Origin: Candidatus Latescibacterota bacterium
GTDB taxonomy: Bacteria > Latescibacterota > UBA2968
Reading direction: 5' to 3'
Assembly: GCA_965116885.1 (NCBI GenBank)
Contig: OZ220741.1
Span: 320,001 to 384,000 of the forward strand
DNA length: 64,000 bases
Shown here piece by piece: positions 45,001 to 48,000 of the stretch. The number at the start of each line of letters is the position of its first letter. Position 1 is the first letter of the stretch. A program made the position numbers.

Positions 45001-48000
45001 TCTGAATCATCTCGTAAATCGGCGTCGGATGCACAAAATCAAGCGTGGGCACAAGACCGTTGGGATAAGCCATGCCCCAGGGCAAATCCGTGGGAATCCC
45101 ATAGCATCCATCGCCCGAAAGCTCACATCCCCCCCGCCCAAAAAAGTACCCTACCACAAGAGCCGGTGCAATCGCATCCACAGCGGGCCAATCGAGCGCA
45201 TTATACCGGCGAAGCCAAAGGAGCACAGTCGCAGCCCCACCCAAAAGCCCGCCGTACCAGGCCCAACCCACCGAGGAAAAAATCGTGCCAAAAGGATCGG
45301 CCACAAAAGCGTGGGGATACTCGAAAACATGAAAAATTTTACTCCCCACAATACCGCCGATCACAGCGGCAAACGCAATGCGGTCTGACAGCGTGGGATC
45401 AAGACCGCGACGCCGAAACTCGCGTTTGAGCACCCACGACGCACAAAGCAAACCAACCGCGAGCATCACGCCATAAACGCCAATGCGAAACGGACCGTAT
45501 TCAAAGAGAATTGGAGACATAGTATGTGTCAGACCGCCTTCTTATCGAGCAAAAACAAAAACTCCCGGTTTGGTTCCTCTGCATCCCTCAACCATTCATT
45601 CGTCCACTTCATCCCCGCCATCACATTCCTCTTATAATTGAGCGCAACCACATCCACTATCTCGCCATTGCGCCGCATCACATCGTTCAACGCTCTCGCA
45701 GTCGCCCGCCCGCCAGAACTGTACGACAGAATAATCCACCGCGCGCGCGTCGCCGCAATCAAATTCTCAATCGCCTCAACCGCGATAAAGCGCCCCTCAT
45801 CACTACGCCGAAACGCCTCAAAAACAGACGCCGCCACAGTATCCGATGTATCCCTGCGGCGATTGGCCTTCCCGAAAAGAGCCGGTTTATCGGCACAAAT
45901 CACACTCGTCCACACATGGTAATAAGAAGCGTACCGCACCCGCGATGGCGGCATCTTCTCGTTATTCGATCCATAAGGCGGATCGAAATACGCCAGATCA
46001 ACGGATATGCGGGGAACGAGATCAAAAATATCCCTCTGAAATACCCGATGTTCCCCCGATGAACGAAAAATACTCGGCACCTCGAGCACAAGCTTCTTAT
46101 AAGATCGAGGCGACCAGTCCTTCAGATAAGAAACAAAATGCCCCAAACTGCTATCCACGCGATCCAGCGCCAAAATCAGACTCGTAAGCGCCACAGCCTC
46201 ATCAACCGGATCCAGCTTCAGCGCGTCAATCTCTTCTCGAATCGCGTCTAATTTGCGAGTATTGTGTACTTGCCACGGCCTCTTGCGCCCATCGCTCTGT
46301 ATCGCACATCCGTCGTTGGGTTGACCCCCATAGTGCTCCGTGAACCACCCATCCACAGGCGAAAGCGCATTGAGATGATCGATAAGCGGTTGATAATCCT
46401 CCCGCTTCTTCTTATTCAGCAAATAGCACGTCCCAAAAACCTTCGACCACACCGCAACATCATTGCAAACAACCGTATAATCCAGCCTCGCAAGCGCCTG
46501 CGACACCCTCGTCGTCCCCGAAAACCCATCCAGAACCGTCTTCGCATCAACCTTCTCAACCAATTGCAAAATATGCGGAAGAAGTTTCAACTTAGACCCC
46601 GCATATTTGATCCCCTCTGTAGGAGGCGCATCAAGAACATCTCGCGTCATGCTTTATCCCAACCTTGCTCAATATGGCAACAGGCTGTTGCCATATTGGA
46701 TTGTGTTCTAATTCTCTCACAGGTTGTGAGAGAATTTCCCCTCAAGCAGTTTCCGATTTCCTTATTCCAGATGCTTCGCAATCTCGTCGCGAATCTACCT
46801 GGACAATTGACGAACCACAGCCGCAATTTCTTCGGCGGTATGAGACGGACGAAAAAAGAAGCGCAAATCGCCGTTCTGGTCAATGAGATAGGTATAAAGG
46901 GAATGGTCAATGAGATACCCCGCCGCAGAACCCTGCTCGCCGATCTCATAGTGAGCCGCATAGCGTTTAACCACCGCATCAATACTATCCTGCACCCCTG
47001 TAAGACCAATGGCTGGCACGTCAAAATGCGACAAATAAGACTTGAGCATCTCGGGCGAATCGCGCCCGGGATCAACACTCACAAAAAGCGTCCTGAGATC
47101 GCGTGCATCCTCGCCTAAAATCGTATAGGCACTCGCAAGCCGCGCCATCGTTTGGGGACATGCATCGGGACAACTCGCATAGCCAAAAAAGAGAAGAAAC
47201 GGACGCTGTTGATCCGCCAAATGAAAAGAATTGCCATCGTGGTCAACAAGCGTCAAATCGCCGCCAAAAGGATAGGGATCGGCAGAAAGGGTGAGATCGG
47301 GATCGGACTGCGGCGCGCGCTCAAGCGGTTTACAGGCCATAAATAGCAACAGCAAAGTGCAAAGTACAAAGTGCAAGCCTCTCCAGCTCCCCCTTATCCC
47401 TCGCCATTTATCTGCGCCCATCTGCGCCCATCTGCGGATCGTATTCATCTGCGCCCTTCACTTCGAAAAGAAACAACAGGTGCCCGAAGCGTCTCCACCT
47501 GACCATTTGCAAAAGTAAGCGTAAGCGCGAGCGAATCGCCCGGAGCCAAATCGCGTCTGAGACCAATGAGCATAAGATGGTTGCCACCGGGTTGCAAAGT
47601 CGCTGAACCATCTTCTGGAATCGGCAAACGGTCAATTTTTTTCATCCGCATAATATTGCCATCCGTCGTCATAACGTGGATCTCGGCAACCTCAGCCGCA
47701 GGCGTAGAAGCAGAAACGAGTGCAGTCGCCATTCCCTCATTGTGAATAGCCAGATAAGCCGCAGTCATCGTCTGTGGTGGAATATTCTGCCGCACCCATG
47801 CGTTTTTAATGGACACAGAAGAAATATCTCGATCACTGCATCCCATCCCCAGCAGAACGAGGGTCAGAAAAAATATCCCACTTTTTATACACACTCTCAT
47901 TTCTGCAACGAAACAATATAAATGGAAATAATCCTGCGCTCTTCTTCCGGGATTTGGGGATAGCCGGGCATACCCATACCCCGTTCATTGAGCGCGCCTT

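What a model noticed while it worked through the whole genome (the two positions that open the first line are those of the whole stretch)
45529..46650. Near-total purge of the hexamer GTMKAC from the genome, shared with the genus
The four GTMKAC words occur 79 times in 5.56 Mb against about 3,000 expected (2-4% of expectation), far below any other hexamer; survivors cluster in rRNA/tRNA and foreign-looking genes. The purge marks this genus and its sister genus only; a genus-fixed orphan adenine methylase in a housekeeping operon (g00326) is the best candidate partner.
Evidence so far: Observed/expected 22/1248, 16/588, 20/594, 21/587; next word 0.19. 10 of 79 sites lie in 11 kb of RNA genes, 6 in one 4-kb block, many in defence/low-GC genes. 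GTAGAC both strands: G055 73, sister G026 41, versus G028 1516, G031 2705, G035 4258; 980 kb of genus loci depleted, other Latescibacterota, Poribacteria and Chloroflexota loci not. g00326 in 20 of 20 genus and 0 of 10 other family genomes, between sco and lgt-cysS with no nuclease.
(Added by a program. Inside this text positions count along the whole contig: contig position 320,001 is position 1 of the stretch shown here. "Call 12" and the like, gene names such as g00115 and contig names such as C1 are that model's own, and its searches are not shown. The text may have been shortened before it was handed on; [...] marks where a part breaks off. The agent that wrote the report below was given it as the finding of a first reader that could run no searches.)

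Follow-up and report, generated by a model that had tools for sequence, protein, structure and literature searches.

The report
Footprint of a lost restriction enzyme
This bacterium's genome has almost no copies of a six-letter DNA word because its lineage long carried a well-known type of DNA-cutting defence enzyme (AccI type) that targets that word; the flagged methylase gene most likely belongs to a different system.

Summary
The purge is real: 79 GTMKAC sites against about 3,016 expected, equally deep in all codon frames. Two parts of the reading fail.

It is not confined to two genera: 51 of 168 phylum genomes are depleted, in four genera.

g00326 is not the partner. It is the methylase half of an SspI-like pair whose nuclease was lost here. 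Poribacteria carrying 69-77% identical homologues keep GTAGAC (397/307).

The partner is an AccI-family system, and AccI recognises GTMKAC. Its nuclease is found in 11 of 20 and its methylase in 14 of 20 genus genomes. This genome has a clean 2.7-kb gap at the shared locus. Outside the phylum, 21 of 25 AccI carriers are deeply purged, against 4 of 25 carriers of the g00326 system.

This is known restriction-site avoidance, here the trace of a lost system. GTMKAC cases at Kr 0.08-0.21 are already tabulated (PMC4687349). Still open: the depth of the purge, and no rebound in the 7 of 21 genus genomes lacking the system.

The parts
45529..46650 (-). g00326, 373-aa D12-class N6-adenine DNA methyltransferase; methylase half of an SspI-like type II pair (likely site AATATT), nuclease lost in this genome; not the GTMKAC partner
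   Evidence: PF02086 E 2e-21; PADLOC MTase_II E 1e-167; partner gene in 75 of 77 nuclease loci, named SspI
46651..46794 (.). Intergenic gap directly upstream of g00326, where relatives (G016, remnant in G001, genus g27) carry the SspI-like nuclease gene; no remnant detected here
   Evidence: tblastn of the 285-aa partner against G000: best E 0.57
46795..47448 (-). SCO1/SenC family gene (upstream neighbour)
   Evidence: PF02630 E 2e-36
44774..45520 (-). lgt, prolipoprotein diacylglyceryl transferase (downstream neighbour)
   Evidence: PF01790 E 2e-50
43241..44737 (-). cysS-like cysteinyl-tRNA synthetase gene (downstream neighbour)
   Evidence: ORF translation; name read from recalled sequence motifs, not scanned
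25828..25833 (.). The only GTMKAC site (GTATAC) in the 64-kb window; about 35 expected from the genome-wide expectation
   Evidence: 3016 expected per 5.56 Mb

Best explanation
The purge is the genomic footprint of an AccI-family type II restriction-modification system: a 355-aa nuclease followed by a methylase of about 510 aa. The genus has carried it since before its deepest split and keeps losing, moving and regaining it.

Inferred mechanism: the nuclease cuts unmethylated GTMKAC. Any host site, above all one newly made by mutation (unmethylated on both strands), risks a double-strand break, so sites are selected out by whichever base change is cheapest. Only sites under strong constraint (rRNA, tRNA) or on recently imported DNA remain. 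G000 deleted the cassette from the zinc-ribbon-dnaK locus recently, so sites have not yet come back.

Shown: depletion, frame independence, the cassette in relatives, the empty locus, and the cross-phylum association. Inferred: enzyme activity, recognition site of these copies, self-cleavage as the selective force, and the date of loss.
For: AccI recognises GTMKAC (PMC4687349 supplement 1). PF09545 RE_AccI is found in 11 of 20 genus genomes (8 full length without a stop), 7 of 31 g27 genomes, and one weak hit elsewhere among 168. The partner methylase is in 14 of 20 and 14 of 31; all 28 carriers are among the 51 depleted genomes, and 0 of 5 undepleted g27 genomes carry it (Fisher p 0.048, kin not independent).

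Outside the phylum, 48 AccI loci give GTMKAC 98/463 = 0.21, second lowest of the motifs scored after its sub-word GTATAC, against 502/671 = 0.75 in 56 g00326-system loci. Whole genomes: ratio below 0.1 in 21 of 25 against 4 of 25.

One locus shows a decay series: nuclease + methylase (G017, G015, G005, G018), nuclease stump + methylase (G020), methylase only (G004, G019), empty (G000). 13 of 14 genus methylase copies form one clade. In g27, depleted non-carriers hold more sites than carriers (median 0.095 vs 0.055, p 0.006). Sites are absent even when the first G is fixed by Met or Trp (1 site against 138 synonymous alternatives).
Against: G000 has no trace of either gene; neither do G023 (82% complete) or G061-G063, which are depleted too. 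Within the genus the 7 of 21 genomes without the methylase are as depleted as carriers (median 0.0078 vs 0.0095, p 0.69). G000 has gained no more sites than carrier G017 over 908 kb at 5.9% divergence (4 vs 6), so each loss must be very recent or something else holds the purge. Only 8 of 21 genus genomes have an intact nuclease. Within the phylum g00326 tracks the purge just as well (29 carriers, all depleted). Four of 25 outside carriers are not deeply purged (0.13, 0.16, 0.47, 0.51), and 3 of 7 tabulated GTMKAC cases in PMC4687349 are weak or nil (0.58, 0.91, 1.00). No enzyme was assayed.
Confidence: 0.82

Rival explanations
1. The AccI system started the purge, but an unrecognised enzyme still encoded in G000 and other non-carriers keeps it in force (another GTMKAC-specific nuclease, or a system such as the 498-aa methylase family).
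For: No rebound in 7 of 21 non-carriers of the genus. Precursor-to-site change is 0.86 per 1000 in G000 against 12-39 for 12 control motifs. G023 and G061-G063 are depleted with no AccI genes found. A contig from another run, 33 differences in 746 bases, bridges the locus empty.
Against: Non-carriers are scattered tips whose nearest neighbours in the g00326 tree are mostly carriers. The cassette sits at five different loci, showing flux. g27 non-carriers do rebound. G023 shows almost no methylases. No candidate nuclease for this site was identified in G000.
Confidence: 0.1
2. One reading: g00326 methylates GTMKAC, and it (or its lost nuclease) drove the purge.
For: g00326 is in 21 of 21 genus genomes and 8 of 31 g27 genomes, all depleted. 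15 of 56 loci of its system show GTMKAC below 0.35. 4 of 25 outside carriers are purged, and 3 of those 4 have no AccI nuclease hit.
Against: 41 pooled Poribacteria loci with the gene give GTAGAC 397/307 and GTATAC 282/303. 21 of 25 outside carriers are not purged. All 8 g27 carriers also carry the AccI-type methylase. Its partner is named SspI, whose site is AATATT (PMC3459991). AATATT is the motif most lowered in its loci relative to AccI loci (0.58 vs 1.08). G023 lacks the gene.
Confidence: 0.04
3. A sequence-specific mutator or repair bias (deamination of the last C, Vsr-like over-repair, base excision) erases the site without selection.
For: Neighbours with the last C changed to T are enriched 1.3-1.5 fold. 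The near-cognate GTGGAC is depleted only when its last C is a wobble base (132/659, vs 253/202 and 329/318).
Against: GTMKAC itself is about 2% in every frame, including where both end bases are non-synonymous. Val-codon use before Asp fits a forbidden-site model once context is allowed for (hand estimate). No Vsr family gene was found. The GTGGAC effect is absent from other AccI carriers (80/146). The 10 site differences between G000 and G017 fall on several positions.
Confidence: 0.03
4. General palindrome avoidance, codon bias or assembly artefact.
For: Many palindromic hexamers are reduced in this genome (0.19-0.6).
Against: The non-palindromic GTAGAC/GTCTAC are as low as the palindromes. 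Val-Asp and Val-Tyr usage is normal (0.98, 0.93). The pattern recurs in 20 independent assemblies and stops at taxonomic borders.
Confidence: 0.01

Closest known systems
Type II restriction-site avoidance and traces of lost R-M systems (Rusinov et al. 2015, PMC4687349)
   Same: An orthodox type II site is under-represented in a genome that lacks the system while close relatives encode it. Their supplement lists GTMKAC in AccI-type carriers at Kr 0.08, 0.11, 0.15 and 0.21.
   Different: Deeper here (about 0.026 by a Markov measure, not their Kr). Followed across a whole genus with a gene decay series, and across 25 carriers of many phyla.
AccI restriction-modification family (Pfam PF09545; FblI and XmiI listed for the same site)
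   Same: Full-length family match (E 2e-111, positions 2-351 of 366). A methylase gene lies beside the nuclease in 65 of 67 outside loci. RefSeq names homologues 'AccI family restriction endonuclease'.
   Different: Not present in the window's genome; specificity of these copies is inferred from family and from site depletion.
SspI restriction-modification system (AATATT)
   Same: g00326's upstream partner falls in 'SspI family' clusters (ESM Atlas 0.99), and a 64% identical homologue is named SspI in UniRef. Both genes match PADLOC type II models.
   Different: The nuclease is lost in 19 of 21 genus genomes and broken or remnant in 2. AATATT is barely reduced in G000 (2028/2390). No direct alignment to authentic SspI was possible.
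Orphan methylases such as Dam and CcrM (recalled)
   Same: A solitary, lineage-fixed adenine methylase between housekeeping genes.
   Different: g00326 is a recent widow of a type II pair; nothing here ties it to replication, repair or regulation.

Membership tests
AccI-type R-M system (cassette in relatives) | Nuclease matches PF09545 over its length | tested here: met
   E 2e-111, 2-351/366 in G017; 8 genus copies full length without a stop
AccI-type R-M system (cassette in relatives) | Adjacent type II amino-methylase | tested here: met
   PADLOC MTase_II E 5e-95; adjacent in 65 of 67 outside loci
AccI-type R-M system (cassette in relatives) | Recognises and cuts or methylates GTMKAC | not testable with these tools
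   Indirect only: GTMKAC is the motif most lowered in carriers
AccI-type R-M system (in G000 itself) | Genes present in the window's genome | tested here: not met
   empty locus
Trace of a lost type II system (Rusinov 2015) | Site strongly under-represented and system encoded in close relatives, not in the genome | tested here: met
Trace of a lost type II system (Rusinov 2015) | Sites return after loss | tested here: inconclusive
   Seen in g27 (p 0.006), not in this genus (p 0.69); G000 gained at most 4 sites in 908 kb
g00326 as a GTMKAC (M.AccI-like) methylase | Homology to the methylase beside AccI-family nucleases | tested here: not met
   best BLAST E 1.5; D12 class
g00326 as a GTMKAC (M.AccI-like) methylase | Carriers avoid GTMKAC | tested here: not met
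   Poribacteria 397/307; 4 of 25 genomes purged
SspI-type R-M system (g00326) | Paired with an SspI-family nuclease gene | tested here: met
   75 of 77 loci; names (automatic names); lost in G000
SspI-type R-M system (g00326) | AATATT avoided in carriers | tested here: inconclusive
   Loci 126/217 vs 446/413; whole-genome counts show a clear drop in only 2 of 25 carriers; not avoided inside the methylase genes (32/20.7)
SspI-type R-M system (g00326) | Methylates AATATT | not testable with these tools
   Needs a methylome or protection assay
True orphan methylase (Dam/CcrM-like) | No cognate nuclease in relatives | tested here: not met

The most novel reading that the evidence does not exclude
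AccI-family systems are unusually strong genome sculptors. They drive their site to a few percent of expectation in most hosts across many phyla although they are mobile. In this genus the purge is held without rebound even in lineages with no intact nuclease (13 of 21), either by population-level exposure (cassette flux plus one-way gene flow from carriers) or by a second, unrecognised GTMKAC-targeting factor. That would make GTMKAC counts a clock for past carriage and a test case for how self-restriction shapes genomes.
Probability: 0.2. Interest if true: 0.62.

Novelty: new member of a known kind. Interest (0 to 1): 0.33.

Why it matters
It gives an unusually clean natural experiment on restriction-site avoidance. 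There is one defined site, a cassette seen at every stage of decay at one locus, carriers and non-carriers in two genera, and replicates in other phyla. It also warns that pairing a depleted word with a gene present in the same genome can mislead: the cause had been deleted, and a co-travelling methylase of another system correlated equally well inside the phylum. In practice, a GTMKAC count flags genomes with present or past AccI-type systems.

Tried and rejected
- RE_AccI search of G000 alone gave nothing; the family appeared only in the phylum-wide search.
- The 498-aa methylase (G000:4348728-4350224) is genus-fixed (19 of 20 full length) but not found in G023 or in the non-genus genomes of that call; it was not tested against g27 or outside the phylum and is set aside, not excluded.
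- The second D12 paralogue is family-wide, also in undepleted genomes: rejected.
- Vsr: none found.
- An early reading of pure last-C-to-T mutation was dropped after context controls.
- Inferring g00326's site from words missing inside its own genes gave no clear motif; the whole-genome AATATT test was weakened by a palindromic control.
- The model of its nuclease was poor (pLDDT 55); the top fold hit R.SwaI had E 0.1 and is not used as evidence. PDB sequence searches found nothing significant; plasmid searches found no nuclease hits.
- The metagenome scan found no near-identical copy of the AccI nuclease (best 69%); its 80 loci give GTMKAC 69/237.
- Laying four runs on the empty locus showed no listed loose end at the junction, with 70 loose ends not shown, so polymorphism within the species is neither shown nor excluded.
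- The maximum-likelihood tree did not finish; FastTree was used.

Full report
OBSERVATION. The genome is one 5,557,749-base contig, 51% G+C. The closest homologues of the flagged gene lie in records titled Candidatus Latescibacterota, and most labelled runs holding part of a G000 stretch are sponge metagenomes. The four GTMKAC words occur 22, 16, 20 and 21 times against 1248, 588, 594 and 587 expected; the next hexamer is at 0.19. Val-Asp and Val-Tyr are used normally (0.98, 0.93). Against synonymous shuffles the site is at 38/1680, 9/371 and 12/769 in the three frames. It is also low in non-coding DNA and when the first G is fixed by Met or Trp (1 site against 138 synonymous alternatives). 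Of the 79 survivors, 6 are in the rRNA operon span, 5 in tRNA genes and 6 in one 3.9-kb block. The word is forbidden as a DNA site, not as a codon pair.

RANGE. GTAGAC on both strands numbers 25-100 in 20 of 20 genus genomes and 41 in G023, against 793-4258 in the other 39 of 60 relatives. Across the phylum, 51 of 168 genomes fall below 0.2 of the reversed-word control: 21 of g1 (with G000), G023, 26 of 31 in g27 and 3 of 3 in g32 (threshold mine). The purge is not private to two genera.

WHAT g00326 IS. It is a D12-class adenine methylase with 549 or more relatives in the genome collection, the best 80 at 69-93% identity. In 41 pooled Poribacteria loci GTAGAC is 397/307 and GTATAC 282/303. 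Many loci carry an unannotated gene of about 282 aa directly upstream, and 75 of 77 loci fetched with that gene hold the methylase. It matches a PADLOC type II nuclease model (E 2e-132) and 'SspI family' clusters (score 0.99); a homologue is named SspI in UniRef. SspI's site is AATATT (PMC3459991, passages). In this genus the nuclease survives with one stop in G016 and as a remnant in G001. AATATT is the motif most lowered in these loci relative to AccI loci (0.58 vs 1.08). Whole-genome counts show a clear drop in only 2 of 25 carriers, and G000 is at 0.85, so the AATATT assignment rests mainly on automatic names.

THE ACTUAL PARTNER. PF09545 (RE_AccI) is absent from G000 but found in 19 of 168 phylum genomes: 11 of 20 in g1, 7 of 31 in g27 and one weak hit in undepleted G064. 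AccI is listed under GTMKAC in PMC4687349 supplement 1. The adjoining methylase has close copies in 14 of 20 and 14 of 31 genomes, plus two distant hits at 27% and 31% that I did not count. All 28 carriers are depleted. It has no similarity to g00326. Thirteen of 14 genus copies form one clade and 12 of 13 g27 copies another (FastTree, 90 rows). The cassette sits at five loci in the genus. Between a zinc-ribbon gene and dnaK it is complete in G017, G015, G005 and the deep-branching G018, a nuclease stump plus methylase in G020, and methylase only in G004 and G019. In G000 it is absent: about 2.7 kb of G017 has no counterpart at G000:3368429-3368477.

SEPARATING THE TWO CANDIDATES. Inside the phylum they cannot be told apart. 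All 29 g00326 carriers are depleted too, and all 8 g27 carriers of g00326 also hold the AccI-type methylase. Outside it they separate. All fetched loci of 12 kb or more were used, leaving out the Latescibacterota records (48 of 80 and 56 of 77 kept). GTMKAC is 98/463 in AccI loci and 502/671 in g00326-system loci; 36 of 48 against 15 of 56 loci are below 0.35. Whole genomes: 21 of 25 AccI carriers have GTAGAC below 0.1 of the control (median 0.035), against 4 of 25 g00326-system carriers (median 0.41). These 25 + 25 were chosen by hand from a longer list after the locus counts were seen. They include five weakly depleted AccI loci and four depleted g00326 loci, but leave out L370 (9 of 9.0 expected). 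One of the four purged g00326-system genomes holds an AccI nuclease stump; three show none.

MECHANISM. From established knowledge of type II systems, and as PMC4687349 discusses (passages and first part of the Discussion), incomplete methylation lets the nuclease cut host DNA, which selects against its site; avoided sites persist as traces after loss. I infer this here, and add as inference that newly arisen sites are unmethylated on both strands and especially exposed. Equal depth in all frames fits selection on the whole site and rejects a one-base mutator. G000 and carrier G017 align over 908 kb at 5.9% difference: 6 sites are shared, 4 only in G000 and 6 only in G017. Of 4,678 transition precursors in G017, 0.86 per 1000 are sites in G000, against 12-39 for 12 control motifs. 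By my estimate about 50 neutral gains were expected on G000's branch, so that lineage was free of the purge for under roughly a tenth (at most a fifth) of it.

WHAT DOES NOT FIT EASILY. Seven of 21 genus genomes lack the methylase and 13 of 21 lack an intact nuclease, yet non-carriers are as depleted as carriers. G023 and G061-G063 (60-96% complete) are depleted with neither gene found. In g27, by contrast, depleted non-carriers hold more sites (0.095 vs 0.055). Rapid loss and regain within species is the simplest account. The run comparison could not show it, so a second factor stays open.

PRIOR ART. PMC4687349 supplement 4 has 7 GTMKAC rows: Kr 0.11, 0.21, 0.91, 1.00, 0.08, 0.15 and 0.58 (only this term was searched in its 5 held files, and other rows may bear on how unusual the depth is). 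PMC12993501 (passages) notes R-M systems in sponge Latescibacterota without naming sites. Eight searches (listings only for other papers) found no report of this purge in Latescibacterota or of AccI-family depth across phyla; the library lacks most subscription papers. Recalled and not from a call: MjaI's site CTAG, and Dam/CcrM biology.

VERDICT. A real and extreme signal with a known kind of cause. The gene at the finding's coordinates is a bystander; the cause is an AccI-family system deleted from this genome. New member of a known kind, interest 0.33.

Noticed in passing
G000:C1:4874453-4876193 (L028:5454-7194), outside the window: MjaI-family nuclease with an N4/N6 methylase beside uvrB, nuclease found in 16 of 20 genus genomes. 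CTAG is at 287/4752 in G000 and 230/2904 in Poribacteria loci: probably a second purge of the same kind (MjaI site recalled).
   Followed up: partly
genome-wide, GTGGAC/GTCCAC: Depleted only when the last C of GTGGAC is a wobble base (GTG|GAC 132 of 1925; other frames normal), in this genus but not in other AccI carriers or G023: a one-strand C-to-T signature of unknown source.
   Followed up: partly
genome-wide, CTTGG/CCAAG: At 0.52 overall and about 0.1 in favourable codon frames, resembling very-short-patch over-repair (recalled), yet no Vsr family gene was found.
   Followed up: partly
G000:C1:4348728-4350224 (L030:5729-7225): 498-aa methylase, full length in 19 of 20 genus genomes; in G018 it lies in a 734-aa open frame with an extra N-terminal part; site unknown.
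   Followed up: partly
G001, G010, G018: Very large methylase arsenals: 47 PF01555 matches in G001, 17-23 PF07669 and 7-10 C5 matches each, against about a dozen candidates in G000 and one PF01555 match in G023.
   Followed up: no
L031:1423-3997 (G000 about 2612267-2614843): The single C5 methylase of G000, followed by a nuclease gene matching PADLOC REase_II models; a HgiDII-like layout (recalled), site not determined.
   Followed up: partly
G000:C1:164836-168756: Six GTMKAC sites in 3.9 kb across three genes, likely a recent import; origin not traced.
   Followed up: no
L057 and related genus loci: Another type II pair (nuclease plus methylase of about 530 aa) hit in 14 genus genomes but not in G000.
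   Followed up: no
Poribacteria loci L169-L238: CATATG is the most depleted hexamer (34/327), followed by GACGTC and GACGCC; partner systems not sought.
   Followed up: no
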